DNA of 64,000 bases, taken from contig CAVVCZ010000002.1 in assembly GCA_963746845.1 (NCBI GenBank), forward strand, positions 192,001 to 256,000, given 5' to 3'. The position numbers were made by a program, and so were the translations under genes. The notes under the pieces are model-generated. The model was not told the DNA's origin. It saw only the letters and a program-made list of their open reading frames with translations, and did not search any database. Positions 668-14,124 of the stretch are shown piece by piece. How positions within the stretch are numbered: the stretch's first letter is position 1; the number at the start of each line of letters is the position of its first letter. This DNA comes from an uncultured Chloroflexia bacterium (GTDB lineage: Bacteria; Chloroflexota; Limnocylindria; Limnocylindrales; CSP1-4).

Positions 668-1042
668 ATGGACGACGACCTCGTCCGGGACGGCCGGTAC
701 GCCCGGCTGGAGATCCGCGGTCACCGTTCGGGTCTCCCGCGTCCGGTGACCGTCGGGTTCGTGGACCGGCCGGACGGCACCATCGTCGTCGCGGCGCGCG
801 CCGACCAGACGGCCTGGGCCCGGAACCTCGAGGCCGACCCGGAGGTCCTCGTCACGATCGGGACCGACGCGGTGCGGGCGACGGCCGAGCTGCTGGCAGA
901 TGACGACCCGCGCCGGCCGGCAGCGATCCGCGACCTGATCCTGCGCTATGGCACGCCGTCCGAGGGCCTGGGTCGGGGCCCGGTGTTCGTCCTCACGACC
1001 GCGCCGCCCGCCGGCGACCCCGATCACGCCGCGGCCGGGTGA
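668..1042 (+). CDS. Deazaflavin (F420)-dependent nitroreductase-family oxidoreductase (DUF385-like)
   Basis: LEIRGHRSGLPRPVTV and WARNLEADPEV match the split-barrel nitroreductase family pattern. Confidence 0.75.
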   Translation: MDDDLVRDGRYARLEIRGHRSGLPRPVTVGFVDRPDGTIVVAARADQTAWARNLEADPEVLVTIGTDAVRATAELLADDDPRRPAAIRDLILRYGTPSEGLGRGPVFVLTTAPPAGDPDHAAAG

Positions 1043-1046
1043 TCCA

Positions 1047-1114
1047 TACGTCATCCGTCGCACGAACCACCGTACGTCCGGACGATGGCCGGACGGGACC
1101 TCGACCGGCAGCAT
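1047..1114 (+). promoter_or_regulatory. Promoter P1: box TACGTCATCCGTCGCA (1047-1062), CGATG (1083), -10 CAGCAT (1109-1114)
   Basis: Same elements and spacing as P2-P4. Confidence 0.6.
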
Positions 1115-1156
1115 GTGAACCACGGCACCTGCCGATCGCCCTCAAGGGATGGACCG

Positions 1157-1279
1157 ATGGACCCGCTCGGGACCCTGATCGTGTCACTGGGAACGCTGAT
1201 CGTCCTCGATCTCGCTGCGCTTCAGCTCGGCGGACCGCGACGCTCGCGGAACCGATCCCGAAGCGTTCGCTCGCGCTGA
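1157..1279 (+). CDS. 40-aa micro-protein, one transmembrane helix plus Arg/Ser-rich tail
   Basis: MDPLGTLIVSLGTLIVLDLAALQLGGPRRSRNRSRSVRSR; purine-rich AAGGGA/GGA upstream; lies directly downstream of P1. Confidence 0.6.
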   Translation: MDPLGTLIVSLGTLIVLDLAALQLGGPRRSRNRSRSVRSR

Positions 1280-1415
1280 CGGTCGTTCCTCCACGACCGG
1301 CACAACTGAATAGACGCCGACCCTCGAGGGTCTCCTCCCTCCTCCCCCTCGATCGCCGGCCGACCTGATCGAAGCGGCGCCGCCCTCCTCCTCCCGGCGC
1401 CGCTTCGACGTTTCT
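1280..1415 (+). ncRNA. Putative 3'-UTR-derived sRNA with three CCUCC-loop hairpins
   Basis: Hairpins at 1280-1299 (loop TCCTCC), 1324-1352 (loop TCTCCTCCCTCCTCC) and 1369-1408 (perfect 14-bp stem, loop CCCTCCTCCTCC, then CGTTTCT); ACAACTGAATAG at 1302-1313. Confidence 0.6.
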
Positions 1416-1577
1416 CCCGCCTTCCGTTCGCGACCGAGAACCGTTTCGTCGTCGGCGACTCCATGATGTCCGACGGGGCCGTGACGGCCGGCAACGACAA
1501 GCCACCACACGACGTTCCCCGGCGGCGGTTCCCGGACCCGGCACCGGGTCGCCGCCGGCACATCTTCCCGCCGCCGC

Positions 1578-1645
1578 TACGTCATTCGGCGTACGTCGGT
1601 CGCCGTCGTCCGTCGGTGGTCGTCGTGGGGCACCTGTCCTAGCGT
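1578..1645 (+). promoter_or_regulatory. Promoter P2: box TACGTCATTCGGCGTA (1578-1593), CGGTG (1614), -10 TAGCGT (1640-1645)
   Basis: Palindromic TACG-N8-CGTA; spacing conserved with P1, P3 and P4. Confidence 0.65.
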
Positions 1646-1694
1646 CTCGTCGTTGGATCCGTGGCAGCCAGAACCCGACCAACCCCTACCCATG

Positions 1695-1727
1695 ACAACT
1701 GAAGAACAACCGAAGAACAACCGAAGA
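1695..1727 (+). repeat. Tandem 11-bp repeat ACAACTGAAGA-ACAACCGAAGA-ACAACCGAAGA (copy A)
   Basis: Read directly; identical to 3133-3165. Confidence 0.95.
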
Positions 1728-1742
1728 GCGTTGCAGCAGCCA

Positions 1743-1780
1743 AGCGGCCGGACTGTCGGATCCACGACGGGCCGGTCGTT
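1743..1780 (+). terminator. Hairpin ending the P2 transcript (possibly bidirectional with DUF1028)
   Basis: AGCGGCCGG/CCGGTCGTT outer stem and CTGTCG/CGACGG inner stem. Confidence 0.5.
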
Positions 1781-1796
1781 CGGTGTCCGGCGCGGA

Positions 1797-2687
1797 TCAG
1801 CCCTCGATCAGGGCCCGCGCTCCGTCCACCAGCTCCGGCTGGGCGCGGCTCGCAGCGAGCCGGCGCAGAAACTCGGGCCAGCGCGGGTTGACCGCGGTCG
1901 CCTCGGCGAGCAACGCCTGCGCCGGCTCGACCAGTCCGGCGCTCGCCATCCCGATCGCTCGCCAGACGAGGACCTGGGCGTCGCCGGGGGCGAGCCGCGA
2001 GGCCTCCTCCGACGCGCGACCGGCGCCTTCCGCGTCACCGGACCGGCCCAGCTCCTCGGCCCGGTCGAGCGCCTCGAACCCGAGCTGGAGCCGGGTCAGC
2101 CGCTCGAGCTCGTCGAGGGGCGCCGGATGATCGTCGACCCGGATGTCGAACGACCGCGTCCAGCCCGGCTCGTCCGGCGTCCCGGACACGATCAGGGCGG
2201 CCGCCTGCCGGCCCCGGATGTCGCCGCCCTCCCGTTCCGCCGCGCGGAGCGCCGCGAGCAGGCGATCCACGAACGAGACCGCCGGCTCCGCCCAGGCGGC
2301 GAGCATCGCCGCGGGGACCGTCGAGCGCTCCATCATGTTGGCCTGGATCGCCACCCCGTCGGCGGTGAGGTGGCCCGCCGCCTCGACGCACGCCGAGCCG
2401 GTCCAGGAGGCCGTCCGGCCGCTCGCGTCGACGATCCCGACCTGGCGGACCTCGCGACCCGGGTCCGCGTCGAGCACCCGGCCCAGCGCGTCCGCTGCCG
2501 CGACGCCGGCCCGCAGGAGGGCCAGGCCGTCCGGGCCATGCGCGATCTGCGTGAACGACTGGGTGGCGACGGCCCCGACCCCGGATTCCATCCACGGCAC
2601 TGAGGCGCCGACGAACGGCCAGCACGTCTGGACGGCGACACCGAAGCGCCCCGTCGCGGGATCGCGGGCGACGATCGAGTAGGTCAT
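1797..2687 (-). CDS. DUF1028 (Ntn-hydrolase-like) domain protein with C-terminal TPR-like helices
   Basis: MTYSIVARDPATGRFGVAVQT, GVGAVATQS, RQVGIVD, GGDIRGRQAAAL and DIRVDDHPAPLDELERL; GGAGG RBS before ATG 2687. Confidence 0.88.
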   Translation of the reverse strand: MTYSIVARDPATGRFGVAVQTCWPFVGASVPWMESGVGAVATQSFTQIAHGPDGLALLRAGVAAADALGRVLDADPGREVRQVGIVDASGRTASWTGSACVEAAGHLTADGVAIQANMMERSTVPAAMLAAWAEPAVSFVDRLLAALRAAEREGGDIRGRQAAALIVSGTPDEPGWTRSFDIRVDDHPAPLDELERLTRLQLGFEALDRAEELGRSGDAEGAGRASEEASRLAPGDAQVLVWRAIGMASAGLVEPAQALLAEATAVNPRWPEFLRRLAASRAQPELVDGARALIEG

Positions 2688-2745
2688 CTGGCTGCCTCCG
2701 CTGGGCGCTCGTGCGTCGAACGACCCGTCATGAACGGCCCTCGCA

Positions 2746-2812
2746 TACGTCATCGGTCGTAACGCGGCCATGGCAGGTGCCGATGCCGCCGCCGTCCGGC
2801 CGGTCCTAGTGT
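2746..2812 (+). promoter_or_regulatory. Promoter P3: box TACGTCATCGGTCGTA (2746-2761), CGATG (2781), -10 TAGTGT (2807-2812)
   Basis: Palindromic TACG-N8-CGTA; conserved spacing. Confidence 0.65.
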
Positions 2813-2868
2813 GCTCGCACGAGGACCGCAAGGGCCGGTCCACCGCTCGGAGAACGGAGTCGCACACC

Positions 2869-3081
2869 ATGGACAGCCAGCAGGTCATGCATGAGGCAGG
2901 AGACCGGGGCCGTCGTGGGTGCCTCGTGGAGGGATGTCCGTGCAAGGACGCCAGGATCGTCTCCATGCGCCGGGCCGCCTTCTTCGCCGCCTGGGCCCGG
3001 AACCGGGGCGAGACCGCCGACCGCTTCGTCTCGCCTGAGGCCGGCTGGCGGATCCCGACCCTCATTCCCTCGGCCGCCTGA
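2869..3081 (+). CDS. 70-aa small protein with H...CLVEGCPC putative metal-binding motif
   Basis: GGAG RBS at 2856-2859; MDSQQVMHEAGDRGRRGCLVEGCPCKDARIVSMRRAAFFAAWA...; lies downstream of P3. Confidence 0.65.
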   Translation: MDSQQVMHEAGDRGRRGCLVEGCPCKDARIVSMRRAAFFAAWARNRGETADRFVSPEAGWRIPTLIPSAA

Positions 3082-3132
3082 CGAATTCTCAGAGACCTCG
3101 CAGACGACGACCGGACGATCGCCCTGCGTCCG

Positions 3133-3165
3133 ACAACTGAAGAACAACCGAAGAACAACCGAAGA
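3133..3165 (+). repeat. Tandem 11-bp repeat 3x ACAACYGAAGA (copy B) in the 3' UTR of the 70-aa gene
   Basis: Read directly; 34 bp (3132-3165) identical to 1694-1727. Confidence 0.95.
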
Positions 3166-3178
3166 CGCCACTCCCGAA

Positions 3179-3208
3179 ACGACCGGCCGCCGCCAGCGAG
3201 CCGGTCGT
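3179..3208 (+). terminator. Hairpin ending the P3 transcript
   Basis: ACGACCGGC/GCCGGTCGT stem; shares the GCCGGTCGT arm with the 1743-1780 hairpin. Confidence 0.5.
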
Positions 3209-3275
3209 CTCAATTCCCGGCCCCGCGGGAGCCGTCGAGACGGCCCGGGCGGTCGGCCGGGTGACCCGGGGCGGC

Positions 3276-3342
3276 ATCGTCATCCGTCGCCCCGTGGCGT
3301 CGCCGTCCGCCGATGGTCGCCCGCGTGGTCGCCGACGAGGAT
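3276..3342 (+). promoter_or_regulatory. Promoter P4: degenerate box ATCGTCATCCGTCGCC (3276-3291), CGATG (3311), -10 GAGGAT (3337-3342)
   Basis: 13-bp core CGTCATCCGTCGC identical to P1; conserved spacing. Confidence 0.55.
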
Positions 3343-3389
3343 CAGGGTCGCCAGCAACCGCCATCCGGCGCCACTCGGAGACGACCCAC

Positions 3390-3833
3390 ATGTTTCGCGG
3401 ATCCCGCCTCGCGGCCTCGTTCCTGCTCGTCCTCACCGGTCTGACCGCTCTCGCGACCGCCCTGTTCGTCGTGCCGGCGGCCGTCGGGGCCGGCGGCGGG
3501 CGGTGGCTGACGCCGGTCGTCCTCTTCCTCGCGATCCTCCACTTCGTCGCGCTCGTCGGCATCTACCGCGGGCGTGACTGGGGCCGCAACCTCGCGGTGT
3601 TCGTGGCCGAGCTCGGCGGCGGGATCGCGATCCTCGGCGCCATCTCGCTGCTCACCGGTGCCCATCCGTTCGGCGCCGACAGCGCGACGGGCCTCGGCCT
3701 GATCGCCTGGTCCGCGGGTGTCTACGCGCTGCTCGGGATCGCGGCCGGCCGGATCCCGGTCCTGTCGCGACTGACCCCGATCGAGCGCCGCCGGGTCGTC
3801 TTCGGCCCGAGCTTCGCCGGCATCGTCCGCTGA
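3390..3833 (+). CDS. Small integral membrane protein (about 4 TM)
   Basis: GGAG RBS at 3377; ATG 3390; four hydrophobic segments. Confidence 0.75.
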   Translation: MFRGSRLAASFLLVLTGLTALATALFVVPAAVGAGGGRWLTPVVLFLAILHFVALVGIYRGRDWGRNLAVFVAELGGGIAILGAISLLTGAHPFGADSATGLGLIAWSAGVYALLGIAAGRIPVLSRLTPIERRRVVFGPSFAGIVR

Positions 3834-13428: not shown

Positions 13429-14124
13429 ATGGACCAAATCCTCTCCGGGATCGGTGATGCCCTCGCCGGGTTCTTCGGCAGCCCCGTCGTCCAGTTCGCG
13501 CTTCAGGCGATCGCGATCTACCTGATCATCCTGTGGCTTGCCGGCGCCTACTGGGCCTTCCGCGACATGCAGCAGCGGAACGAAAACCCGATCCTGCCGT
13601 ACGTCGCGGCGAGCTTCATCATCCTGTTCACCCCGATCTTCTTCCCGCTCGCGATCTTCGTGTACAAGATCATCCGGCCGCACGAGAAGATCGGCGAGAC
13701 CTACGAGCGGAGCCTGGCCGAGGAGGCGCTCCTCGCCGAGGTCGAGGCGATCAAGAGCTGTCCGACCTGCGCCCGGCGCGTGAACGAGGAATGGATCATC
13801 TGCCCGACGTGCCGGACGCGCCTCAACCGTGTCTGCCCGAACTGCAGCCGGCTCGTTGGTCTCGACTGGTCCCTGTGCGCGTGGTGCGGCAAGGACTTCG
13901 AGCGGCCGGCGACGGCCCTCGCGGCATCGTCCGGCGGACGGCCGGCCCCGATCATGCCGCTGCCCGCGGCCGACGATCCCGCTCGTCTCGCCCGGACCGG
14001 CGAGACGACCTATGACGAGCCGGAACGGCGAACCGGCACGGATCGCAACGCGGCGCGGAGCCGCTCGTCGTCGACCCGTGCGACCGCCCCGATCCAGACC
14101 CCCGACGTCCTGCCCGAGGGGTGA
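13429..14124 (+). CDS. Membrane-anchored double zinc-ribbon protein
   Basis: Two TM helices, RPHE motif, then CPTC..CPTC..CPNC..CAWC; GGAGG RBS. Confidence 0.85.
   Translation: MDQILSGIGDALAGFFGSPVVQFALQAIAIYLIILWLAGAYWAFRDMQQRNENPILPYVAASFIILFTPIFFPLAIFVYKIIRPHEKIGETYERSLAEEALLAEVEAIKSCPTCARRVNEEWIICPTCRTRLNRVCPNCSRLVGLDWSLCAWCGKDFERPATALAASSGGRPAPIMPLPAADDPARLARTGETTYDEPERRTGTDRNAARSRSSSTRATAPIQTPDVLPEG

What the first reader, a model, noticed from the sequence alone, without database searches (positions are those of the whole stretch)
1280..1415. Three consecutive hairpins displaying CCUCC (anti-Shine-Dalgarno) loops behind a micro-protein gene
Seen: directly after the stop of the 40-aa ORF are three stems whose loops are TCCTCC, TCTCCTCCCTCCTCC and CCCTCCTCCTCC; the last is a perfect 14-bp stem followed by CGTTTCT. 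Established: alphaproteobacterial 'cuckoo'/CcsR sRNAs have hairpins with CCUCCUCCC loops and are processed from the 3' UTR of a small-protein mRNA, and actinobacterial 6C RNA uses C-rich loops. Inference: a cuckoo-like trans-acting sRNA in a lineage that does not look proteobacterial, able to pair with GGAGG ribosome-binding sites, several of which occur in this window (DUF1028, guaA, 13429). Leaderless mRNAs would be immune to it.
Basis: partly seen in the sequence, partly recalled or inferred. Interest (0 to 1): 0.78.

Follow-up and report, generated by a model that had tools for sequence, protein, structure and literature searches.

The report
CCUCC-loop small RNA in soil Chloroflexota
A conserved RNA of about 100 bases, with two hairpins whose loops copy the ribosome's own mRNA-docking sequence, sits behind small-protein genes in a family of uncultured soil Chloroflexota and probably acts as a brake on translation, much like look-alike RNAs known from other phyla.

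Summary
Window 1280-1408 holds three hairpins with CCUCC loops right after a 40-aa ORF. Two of them are the core of an RNA family that no Rfam model reaches at its gathering score: HP2 (1324-1352) and HP3 (1369-1408), plus an A-rich linker (1302-1312). A covariance model built here finds it in 104 of 151 genomes and 34 of 49 genera of the window's family. Record titles of relatives name Chloroflexota, Candidatus Limnocylindrales. Outside that family I found almost nothing. The loops are kept (CCUCC in 95 of 98 HP3 loops and 94 of 98 HP2 loops) while the HP2 stem covaries freely. The RNA lies on the coding strand just after one of two unrelated arginine-rich small-protein genes, and in at least four loci stands alone. 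The 16S tail is CCUCCU, GGAGG is enriched before start codons, and Hfq and RNase E were not found. Best reading (about 0.6): a trans-acting anti-Shine-Dalgarno sRNA that works like CcsR/cuckoo and 6C but is a member of neither. No transcript of the hairpin region and no target was shown. HP1 is not conserved.

The parts
1047..1064 (+). Conserved upstream motif TACGTCATCCGTCGCACG, about 110 nt before the micro-protein ATG. It may be an operator or promoter element of the transcription unit.
   Evidence: Conserved block ATACGTCATCCGTCGCAC-N12-ACCTTCGGACGATGG in the MAFFT alignment of 20 same-genus upstream regions. One of 4 copies in window 900-3800 (family D2). Its function was not tested.
1157..1279 (+). 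40-aa micro-protein gene (MDPLGTLIVSLGTLIVLDLAALQLGG + RRSRNRSRSVRSR): a hydrophobic helix followed by an alternating-arginine tail.
   Evidence: An ORF of 38-40 aa is kept in 18 aligned same-genus loci with 18 invariant residues. It has no Pfam or NCBIfam family. RNA-library contigs from 4 of 4 soil metatranscriptome runs cover 1142-1280 at 85-99% identity. Homologues occur in 13 of 151 family genomes.
1280..1299 (+). HP1: 7-bp hairpin with loop UCCUCC. It is not part of the conserved core.
   Evidence: A hairpin is predicted at this place in about 12 of 20 same-genus loci, but the loop sequence varies.
1302..1312 (+). Conserved single-stranded A-rich linker ACAACUGAAUA. It is a candidate processing site or a second seed.
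   Evidence: ACAACYGAATA is kept in most rows of alignments A2 and A6, in both gene contexts. It is unpaired in the MFE fold. The role is inferred. RNase Y and RNase J are present in the genome; RNase E/G was not found.
1324..1352 (+). HP2: variable-sequence stem (extended 1316-1360) presenting loop UCUCCUCCCUCCUCC, the first anti-Shine-Dalgarno loop.
   Evidence: CCUCC occurs in the HP2 loop region in 94 of 98 aligned members. All 6 modelled HP2 pairs show changes on both sides. Compensatory changes also appear on a plain MAFFT alignment.
1369..1408 (+). HP3: perfect 14-bp G+C-rich stem (GAAGCGGCGCC / GGCGCCGCUUC) with loop CCCUCCUCCUCC. It is the second anti-Shine-Dalgarno loop and the probable terminator hairpin.
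   Evidence: CCUCC is in 95 of 98 HP3 loops and CCUCCUCC in 87 of 98. Across the 12 modelled pairs, 99.5% of cells are paired and 9 pairs show compensatory changes. This stem occurs only twice in the genome, once at each of the two RNA loci.
1409..1415 (+). Weak U-tract CGUUUCU after HP3.
   Evidence: Across 98 members the 8 nt after HP3 hold 2-4 U in 85 cases. The consensus terminator scan did not call it.
1297..1414 (+). Whole extent of the covariance-model match, taken as the conserved RNA unit (linker + HP2 + HP3 + tail).
   Evidence: Model R1 scores 96.1 bits at G000:C2:193297-193414, which is window 1297-1414. Model R2 scores 83.5 bits. Reverse-strand matches to the same places score only about 20-30 bits.

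Best explanation
Window 1297-1414 (+) encodes one copy of a lineage-specific small RNA family of soil Chloroflexota (Candidatus Limnocylindrales). The RNA has a single-stranded A-rich leader, a hairpin of free stem sequence (HP2) and a strong terminator-like hairpin (HP3). Each hairpin shows a CCUCCUCC loop, the same sequence as the 3' tail of the organism's own 16S rRNA.

Shown:
- The family exists.
- Its structure is under selection.
- The loops are nearly invariant.
- It lies on the sense strand just behind one of two unrelated arginine-rich small-protein genes, or stands alone behind a conserved upstream motif.
- The genome holds two copies.

Inferred:
- The RNA is made as the 3' end of the small-protein mRNA, or from its own start in the stand-alone loci.
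- It may be cut free in the A/U-rich linker by RNase Y or RNase J.
- Its exposed C-rich loops pair with GGAGG ribosome-binding sites of other mRNAs and block 30S binding.
- The G-C-rich pairing lets it work without Hfq.

On this reading it works like the alphaproteobacterial CcsR/cuckoo RNAs and the actinobacterial 6C RNA, as an independent invention rather than a member of those families.
For: Conservation and structure
- R1, built from 20 same-genus sequences, finds full-length matches in 104 of 151 family genomes and 34 of 49 genera.
- On 98 aligned members (97 distinct rows), 96.3% of pair cells are paired against 82.2% in shuffles. 15 of 18 pairs change on both sides. Slid-partner controls give 36-57% paired.
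- An independent MAFFT + RNAalifold run gives 9 of 19 pairs with compensatory changes.

Loops
- CCUCC is in 95 of 98 HP3 loops and 94 of 98 HP2 loops, although the HP2 stem sequence is free.

Strand
- All 80 of 80 loci fetched through the 116-aa protein carry the RNA on the protein's strand just after its stop. 78 of these 80 pass E <= 1e-7.
- The same holds behind the micro-protein in 20 same-genus loci and in 3 of 4 loci from other genera.
- Reverse-strand scores are far lower.

The RNA, not the ORF, is the selected unit
- The RNA is found in 34 of 49 genera and the 116-aa protein in 26 of 49 genera of the same draw.
- In four loci (L052, L062, L067, L175) the conserved upstream motif sits 120-175 nt before HP3 with no ORF between.

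Target logic
- The 16S 3' end is GGAUCACCUCCUUUCU, and GGAGG is enriched at -14 to -9 of candidate starts (peak 86 against a background of about 40).
- Neither small-protein gene has a GGAGG site of its own.

Chaperone and nucleases
- No Hfq and no RNase E/G were found. RNase Y (154 bits) and RNase J (102.5 bits) are present.

Precedent (passages read)
- CcsR RNAs have two hairpins with CCUCCUCCC loops and are cut from the 3' UTR of a small-protein mRNA (PMC8034643).
- 6C binds targets through C-rich loops without a chaperone (PMC6486639).

Expression
- RNA-library contigs of 4 of 4 soil runs from 4 studies cover the micro-ORF. Loose ends in 3 of the 4 runs (X15, X16, X18) reach a median of 74-124 nt of unlike sequence beyond their last matched place, at or before the stop; X19's contig stops matching at 1245.
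Against: - No transcript of the hairpin region was seen. At 85% likeness or more, no contig covered 1282-1500. Contigs cannot show strand or ends, and DNA carry-over in RNA libraries cannot be excluded.
- No target was identified. An RNAduplex scan of 2,124 candidate starts with GGAGG gave a broad, unspecific energy distribution.
- The HP3 stem is almost invariant in sequence, not only in pairing: 3 of 12 pairs never vary and most others vary in 10 or fewer of 97 rows. A plain seed-presenting hairpin does not explain this. It hints at a protein partner or a DNA-level role.
- The U-tract is weak, and the consensus scans called neither a terminator nor a promoter.
- The minus strand folds as well as the plus strand.
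- The genome is 92% complete, so the missing Hfq and RNase E are 'not found', not 'absent'.
Confidence: 0.6

Rival explanations
1. Protein-bound RNA module. The hairpins, above all the sequence-invariant HP3 stem, are a binding platform for the co-encoded arginine-rich small proteins or for another RNA-binding protein. The unit would work as a ribonucleoprotein or as a protein sponge, not mainly by pairing with ribosome sites.
For: - Both linked proteins carry arginine-rich stretches: RRxRxRxRxxRSR at the C-end of the micro-protein and MAGQARRGxRGxGRSSR at the N-end of the 116-aa protein.
- The HP3 stem sequence is almost invariant across genera while the HP2 stem is free.
- Precedent: CcaF1 binds the CcsR RNAs it is transcribed with (PMC8034643, passages).
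Against: - The RNA persists in genera and loci without either ORF, so binding to the neighbour's product cannot be its only role.
- The feature under the strictest selection besides HP3 is the CCUCC loop motif, which matches the anti-SD.
- No RNA-binding fold was recognised: the AF2 model has mean pLDDT 61, and no PDB match reached E <= 0.001.
Confidence: 0.17
2. Purely cis-acting 3' end. The two hairpins only terminate transcription and shield the small-protein mRNAs from 3' exonucleases, or fold back on their own leader. No free regulatory RNA exists.
For: - The position is directly after stop codons (distance -7 to +45 nt in 73 loci).
- HP3 is a strong G+C-rich hairpin followed by some U.
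- HP3-like stems with other loops end unrelated genes in sister families, for example a cold-shock gene.
Against: - A terminator or stabiliser does not need conserved loop sequences, yet CCUCC is kept in 95 of 98 and 94 of 98 loops.
- The element is kept behind two unrelated genes and also with no ORF.
- I saw no conserved GGAGG-like partner in either leader. The G-rich stretch upstream of this genome's second copy is not conserved in other genera.
Confidence: 0.15
3. The functional transcript is the minus strand. That RNA would have GGAGGAGG loops (a Shine-Dalgarno mimic) and would titrate 30S subunits or the 16S tail.
For: The minus strand folds as well as the plus strand (z = -4.56). The strand was not observed experimentally.
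Against: - Co-orientation with the upstream gene in 80 of 80 loci fetched through the 116-aa protein, in 20 same-genus loci and in 3 loci from other genera.
- The U-rich tail follows HP3 only on the plus strand.
- The conserved upstream motif lies on the plus-strand side.
- The conserved linker is A-rich on the plus strand.
Confidence: 0.04
4. Chance or composition: ordinary GC-rich hairpins whose loops happen to be pyrimidine-rich.
For: The genome is 71% G+C, and a permissive scan finds 313 hairpins with a CCUCC loop.
Against: - Full-length model matches in 104 of 151 genomes, with E-values down to 1e-28.
- Covariation exceeds all 500 shuffles on every measure.
- The HP3 stem occurs only at the two loci of this genome.
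Confidence: 0.01

Closest known systems
CcsR / 'cuckoo' RNAs of Alphaproteobacteria (Rfam CcsR1 RF02791, ar14 RF02344)
   Same: - Adjacent hairpins with variable stems, each loop carrying CCUCCUCC(C), an anti-Shine-Dalgarno sequence.
- Several copies per genome.
- Copies lie in the 3' UTR of a small, arginine-rich protein gene, or elsewhere (PMC4615179 and PMC8034643, passages read).
- The hairpin and loop sizes here fall inside the ranges the cuckoo matcher allows: hairpins of 24-50 nt and loops of 9-27 nt.
   Different: - Different phylum.
- Rfam scores are far below the cut-offs: CcsR1 17.3 against 65.3 bits and ar14 17.8 against 58.8 bits, and only on HP3.
- The neighbouring proteins are not DUF1127 (no Pfam hit at E <= 1).
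- There is a conserved A-rich leader and a nearly invariant second stem, which the cuckoo description lacks.
- Hfq and RNase E, both involved with CcsR, were not found here.
- This RNA is one unit per locus, not a tandem array of four.
6C RNA of Actinobacteria (Rfam RF01066)
   Same: - Two hairpins with C-rich loops in a high-G+C, Hfq-less bacterium.
- In 6C the loops pair with G-rich ribosome sites without a chaperone (PMC6486639, passages read).
   Different: - The loops here are CCUCC repeats, not C runs.
- Rfam scores 21.2 bits against a cut-off of 47, with HP3 aligned to the first 6C hairpin and unconserved sequence to the second.
- Not in Actinobacteria.
- No over-threshold 6C was found in the genome. 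That search also missed the cut-off in its Corynebacterium control, so it is weak evidence.
C-rich-loop sRNAs of Firmicutes (RNAIII and the Rsa class; RsaE/RoxS). RNAIII/UCCC is as cited in PMC4615179; RsaE/RoxS is recalled.
   Same: The same principle: exposed C-rich loops that target ribosome-binding sites. This genome's RNA-decay set is also Firmicute-like (RNase Y and RNase J).
   Different: Different motif (UCCC/CCCC), different architecture, no sequence relation. I ran no test of these families beyond the Rfam scans.

Membership tests
cuckoo / CcsR (structural definition of Reinkensmeier & Giegerich, PMC4615179) | 2 to 4 adjacent hairpins with variable stems | tested here: met
   Two conserved adjacent hairpins (HP2, HP3) in 98 aligned members; a third (HP1) in this genome only.
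cuckoo / CcsR (structural definition of Reinkensmeier & Giegerich, PMC4615179) | Each hairpin loop carries CCUCCUCCC | tested here: met
   CCUCCUCC is in 87 of 98 HP3 loops, and CCUCC in 95 of 98 HP3 and 94 of 98 HP2 loops. The ninth C is often the first stem base, so the match to the 9-mer is near, not exact.
CcsR1 (RF02791) / ar14 (RF02344) as homologous Rfam families | Covariance-model score at or above the curated gathering score | tested here: not met
   17.3 against 65.3 bits and 17.8 against 58.8 bits. There were 0 matches at gathering in the 64-kb window and in 20 further loci.
CcsR CIN1 locus | Adjacent DUF1127 protein gene (CcaF1 type) | tested here: not met
   Neither small protein hits DUF1127, and neither reaches any Pfam family's cut-off, at E <= 1; none in NCBIfam.
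CcsR | Released from the mRNA 3' UTR by RNase E; Hfq-bound; stress-induced | not testable with these tools
   Hfq (PF17209) and RNase E/G (PF10150) were not found in the 92%-complete genome. Expression conditions are unknown.
6C RNA (RF01066) | Covariance-model score at or above 47 bits | tested here: not met
   21.2 bits at window 1370-1449. The best place elsewhere in the genome scores 23.4 bits.
6C RNA (RF01066) | Two stem-loops with conserved cytosine-rich loops | tested here: inconclusive
   There are two hairpins with C/U-rich loops, but as CCUCC repeats rather than the C runs of the 6C consensus.
Intrinsic (Rho-independent) terminator | G+C-rich hairpin followed at once by a U-tract | tested here: inconclusive
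   HP3 has a 14-bp G+C-rich stem, but the tail holds only 2-4 U in 8 nt in 85 of 98 members. The consensus scan called nothing.
3'-UTR-derived sRNA | Same strand as, and directly downstream of, a coding gene, sharing its terminator | tested here: met
   80 of 80 loci fetched through the 116-aa protein, 20 same-genus loci, and 3 of 4 micro-protein loci from other genera. Some copies are stand-alone.
3'-UTR-derived sRNA | A discrete processed RNA species exists | not testable with these tools
   Only Logan contigs were available. They cover the ORF, not the hairpins, and show no ends.

The most novel reading that the evidence does not exclude
Soil Chloroflexota independently evolved a 'cuckoo-type' riboregulator: an RNA whose two loops mimic the 16S anti-Shine-Dalgarno tail. 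They also coupled it, as Rhodobacter does with CcaF1-CcsR, to tiny arginine-rich proteins that bind or mature it. The nearly invariant HP3 stem would be the protein's handle and the loops the mRNA seed. The module would be a chaperone-independent global brake on SD-led translation in an abundant, uncultured soil lineage, and it would spare mRNAs that lack a GGAGG site.
Probability: 0.3. Interest if true: 0.75.

Novelty: new member of a known kind. Interest (0 to 1): 0.62.

Why it matters
- I found almost nothing on riboregulation in Chloroflexota. No paper in the held library pairs 'Limnocylindr' with 'sRNA'. The two papers that hold 'Chloroflexi', 'small RNA' and 'anti-Shine-Dalgarno' together are general reviews.
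- This is a well-supported structured RNA family that no Rfam model reaches at its gathering score, in a widespread group of uncultured soil bacteria. It gives a ready covariance model for annotating these MAGs.
- The same design appears in a third distant phylum: anti-SD loops on adjacent hairpins, behind a small basic protein gene. That would be a clear case of convergent evolution of a translational regulator.
- It would also support the idea, drawn from 6C, that G-C-rich loop-to-ribosome-site pairing replaces Hfq in high-G+C bacteria.
- The two linked small proteins have no known family. They become candidates for a new kind of RNA partner.

Tried and rejected
- **Known Rfam family: rejected.** There were 0 matches at gathering in the window and in 20 other loci, and only sub-threshold hits to CcsR1, ar14 and 6C on HP3.
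- **Canonical 6C elsewhere in the genome.** None was over the cut-off. The tool's Corynebacterium control was also under the cut-off, so this says little.
- **Dispersed repeat or common terminator: rejected.** The HP3 stem occurs only at the two RNA loci of this genome.
- **Members in sister families: rejected.**
  - The five class-level hits in f3 and f4 rest on HP3-like stems. Three of the five have other loops and two carry a CCUCC-type loop.
  - None of the four whose upstream sequence could be read lies behind the 116-aa protein's homologue; the fifth (L158) sits at a contig end.
  - The single phylum-level hit is weak, at 33.7 bits.
- **Cis pairing with the own ribosome site.** I saw no conserved GGAGG-like partner in either leader.
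- **Target prediction.** RNAduplex of the two loops against 2,124 candidate starts with GGAGG gave a broad distribution and no clear set. I give no list.
- **Promoter and terminator consensus scans.** Nothing was called in 900-1900.
- **Expression of the hairpin region.** RNA-library contigs gave no cover of 1282-1500 at 85% likeness or more. This is no evidence of absence.
- **Fold of the 116-aa protein.** The AF2 model has mean pLDDT 61, with a three-helix C-terminal domain at 75-84. Foldseek against the PDB gave no match at E <= 0.001. The ESM Atlas gave only unnamed Chloroflexota clusters.
- **Supplements.** Table S1 of the cuckoo paper lists all species searched, and I could not check it for hits outside Alphaproteobacteria. 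The main text has 0 occurrences of 'Chloroflexi'.
- **Literature search.** It was badly framed (min_terms 2) and is uninformative.
Full report
**1. What is in the sequence**

The 40-aa ORF runs from 1157 to 1279, with its TGA at 1277-1279. Three hairpins follow it at once.
- HP1 (1280-1299) has a 7-bp stem and loop UCCUCC.
- HP2 (core 1324-1352) has loop UCUCCUCCCUCCUCC.
- HP3 (1369-1408) has a perfect 14-bp stem and loop CCCUCCUCCUCC, then CGUUUCU.

RNAfold of 1275-1425 on the plus strand returns exactly these hairpins with open loops. The energy is -58.3 kcal/mol, z = -4.48, and 0 of 200 shuffles fold as well. The minus strand folds as well (z = -4.56).

**2. Not a known family**

Rfam 15 gives no match at gathering score anywhere in the 64-kb window. 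With permissive settings, HP3 alone draws weak hits:
- CcsR1: 17.3 bits against a cut-off of 65.3.
- ar14: 17.8 bits against 58.8.
- 6C: 21.2 bits against 47.

Twenty further member loci from other genera also give nothing at gathering.

**3. Lineage**

The window is contig C2:192001-256000 of a 3.56-Mb genome with 71% G+C and 92% completeness. Relatives that carry the linked protein have public titles such as 'Candidatus Limnocylindrales bacterium' and 'Chloroflexota bacterium' (taxonomy). The 16S 3' end in this genome reads GGAUCACCUCCUUUCU.

**4. Conservation in the genus**

DNA search finds the locus in 23 of 24 other genomes of the genus and in 0 of 16 genomes of a small-genome sister family (one of the 24, G010, is unpublished).

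The micro-protein is kept. It has 38-40 aa and 18 invariant residues, with a hydrophobic N-terminal helix and an alternating-arginine tail.

Behind it, HP2 and HP3 recur with CCUCC loops. The HP2 stem changes sequence while keeping its pairs. RNAalifold on a plain MAFFT alignment gives 9 of 19 pairs with compensatory change.

An HP1-like hairpin is predicted in about 12 of 20 loci, but its loop varies.

A single-stranded ACAACYGAAUA linker before HP2 is conserved.

**5. A family-wide RNA with a second, commoner context**

A covariance model from the 20 same-genus sequences (R1) finds a second copy in this genome at C5:356340-356469(-), scoring 45 bits with R1 and 74 bits with the broader model R2. 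It also finds full-length matches in 104 of 151 genomes and 34 of 49 genera of the family (one genome, G121, is unpublished).

In other genera the best match lies just after the stop of a protein of about 116 aa. That protein has:
- an arginine/glycine-rich N-terminus (MAGQARRGxRGxGRSSR);
- a variable linker;
- a conserved C-terminal domain (YRxLLLRGLAPDEAANLTAFL...LLFLRE).

It is the orthologue of the ORF before this genome's second copy.

I searched public genomes with that domain and fetched 80 loci. All 80 carry the RNA on the protein's strand directly downstream. 78 of them pass E <= 1e-7 and the other two pass E <= 1e-3.

Neither protein reaches the curated cut-off of any Pfam family, and neither has an NCBIfam hit.

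**6. Structure statistics**

On 98 aligned members (97 distinct rows):
- 96.3% of pair cells are standard pairs, against 82.2 +/- 0.6% in 500 shuffles.
- 15 of 18 pairs show changes on both sides.
- Sliding the partners by 1-3 columns drops pairing to 36-57%.

This alignment was fitted to the model, which leans towards the structure. The independent MAFFT result points the same way.

Loop content:
- CCUCC is in 95 of 98 HP3 loops, and CCUCCUCC in 87 of 98.
- CCUCC is in 94 of 98 HP2 loop regions. One of the four 'misses' is this genome's second copy, which does carry CCCUCCUCCC but was misaligned.

The HP3 stem (GAAGCGGCGCC / GGCGCCGCUUC) is almost invariant in sequence. Structure alone does not explain this.

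**7. Range**

Model R2, built from the 98 sequences, gives these class-level tallies:

| Family | Genomes with a match |
|---|---|
| f1 (own family) | 30 of 44 |
| f2 | 0 of 6 |
| f3 | 3 of 49 |
| f4 | 2 of 50 |
| f5 | 0 of 1 |

- The five hits outside f1 rest on HP3-like stems, three with other loops and two with a CCUCC-type loop.
- One of them ends a cold-shock gene.
- None of the four with readable upstream sequence is linked to the 116-aa protein.
- Across the phylum, 1 of 147 genomes outside the family has a weak hit of 33.7 bits.

As sampled, the RNA is confined to one family.

**8. The RNA is the selected unit**
- The micro-protein has homologues in 13 of 151 family genomes: 5 of 5 in the own genus, and others in at least two further genera. 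The RNA follows it in 3 of 4 full-length hits from other genera.
- The 116-aa protein is found in 71 of 151 genomes and 26 of 49 genera. That is fewer than the RNA in the same draw.
- A conserved motif (AAGTAC-N21-GTCATC-like) lies about 500-630 nt before HP3 in the protein-linked loci, which is about 100 nt before the ATG.
- In four loci (L052, L062, L067, L175) the same motif lies 120-175 nt before HP3 with no ORF between (the tally includes one locus of the unpublished G121).

The same RNA is thus kept behind two unrelated genes and also on its own. This argues against a mere terminator or an mRNA-specific 3' element.

**9. Mechanism**

The loops repeat the anti-Shine-Dalgarno sequence of the 16S tail. 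GGAGG is enriched at -14 to -9 before candidate start codons, with a peak of 86 against a background of about 40 among 22,024 candidate starts, many of them false. Real GGAGG sites occur in the window, for example DUF1028 at 2687(-) and the ATG at 13429. The two linked small-protein genes lack GGAGG.

Hfq and RNase E/G were not found. RNase Y and RNase J are present.

By analogy with CcsR and 6C (PMC8034643, PMC4615179 and PMC6486639; passages read, not whole texts), I infer three steps:
- The RNA is co-transcribed with the small gene, or made from its own start.
- It may be cut in the A/U-rich linker.
- It pairs through its loops with GGAGG ribosome sites and represses translation without a chaperone.

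None of these steps was observed.

**10. Expression**

I laid four soil metatranscriptome runs from four studies, all as Logan contigs. All four cover the micro-ORF (1142-1280) at 85-99% identity, and one reaches a summed word depth of up to 443. Contigs of three of the four runs (X15, X16, X18) go on for a median of 74-124 nt of sequence unlike the window beyond the last place they match, at or before the stop codon. The single contig of the fourth run (X19) stops matching at 1245 and runs on for 90 nt. This is expected of relatives with a divergent 3' region. Contigs show no strand and no ends, and DNA in RNA libraries cannot be excluded. No contig matched 1282-1500.

**11. The linked proteins**

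AlphaFold2 with a 41-sequence alignment predicts a disordered N-terminal half and a three-helix C-terminal domain (residues 50-104, pLDDT 75-84; mean pLDDT 61). Foldseek finds no PDB match at E <= 0.001. The Atlas returns only unnamed Chloroflexota clusters. That these proteins bind the RNA, as CcaF1 binds CcsR, is a hypothesis. It rests on their arginine-rich segments and on the invariant HP3 stem.

**12. Verdict**

This is a real, conserved, lineage-specific structured RNA (confidence about 0.95). It most likely acts as an anti-Shine-Dalgarno sRNA (about 0.6). It works like cuckoo/CcsR and 6C and meets the structural description of cuckoo RNAs, but it fails the homology tests for all three Rfam families and lies in another phylum. 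I file it as a new member of a known kind.

Noticed in passing
window 1047-1064, 1578-1595, 2746-2763, 3276-3293: Four copies of the motif TACGTCATYCGNCG lie within 2.3 kb, at spacings of 531, 1168 and 530 nt. The first is conserved about 110 nt before the micro-protein ATG in all same-genus loci. A copy also recurs about 170 nt after the RNA in many relatives. Roughly eight sites that look intergenic occur genome-wide. It is probably an operator or promoter element shared by neighbouring units.
   Followed up: partly
window 1694-1738 and 3132-3176: A tandem 11-nt repeat (GAAGAACAACC) x3, strikingly A-rich for a 71% G+C genome, occurs at exactly two places in the whole genome. The two copies flank the minus-strand DUF1028 gene, which runs 2687..1797. 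Function unknown.
   Followed up: partly
G000 contig C5:356340-356820 (-), outside the window (loci L002/L034): The second copy of the RNA lies behind a 116-aa protein of no known family (arginine-rich N-terminus, three-helix C-terminal domain). This is the commoner context of the RNA in the family. A SAM-hydroxide-adenosyltransferase-like ORF follows on the same strand (that name is recalled from the sequence, not tested).
   Followed up: yes
loci L034, L045-L068, L151-L157, about 100 nt before the 116-aa protein's ATG; L052, L062, L067, L175 directly before the RNA: A conserved upstream motif AAGTAC-N(~10)-GGGAC-N(~6)-GGGTCATC is present in 23 of the 24 loci my pattern classed as protein-linked and in 8 of the 9 it classed as without an ORF. 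Four of those eight are probably protein-linked loci that the pattern missed (one of the 24 loci, L063, is from the unpublished G121). It does not look like a sigma-70 promoter. It may be a promoter for another sigma factor, an operator, or a 5' RNA hairpin.
   Followed up: partly
window about 1118-1156: The leader of the micro-protein gene has a conserved small hairpin, ACGGCACCUGCCG, and an atypical purine-rich ribosome site, AAGGGAUGGACC, in place of GGAGG.
   Followed up: no
G000 C5:375025-375063 (-), C1:8358-8394 (+), C2:272330-272366 (+), C6:345473-345508 (+), all outside the window: These are other strong single hairpins (11-14 bp) with CCUCC-type loops. Those on C5 and C1 lie just after stop codons, and their stems resemble each other (GCGGGCCGGGC...). 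They may be terminators with pyrimidine loops, or further anti-SD elements.
   Followed up: no
loci L074, L075, L096: Contigs carrying the Limnocylindrales-type protein plus RNA are filed in public MAGs titled Verrucomicrobiia, Acidimicrobiales and Saccharimonadales. These are probably mis-binned contigs.
   Followed up: no
window 1142-1280: The micro-protein ORF of this genus appears at high summed depth (up to 443) in contigs of one soil metatranscriptome run and at lower depth in three others. The tiny gene may be strongly expressed in soil.
   Followed up: partly
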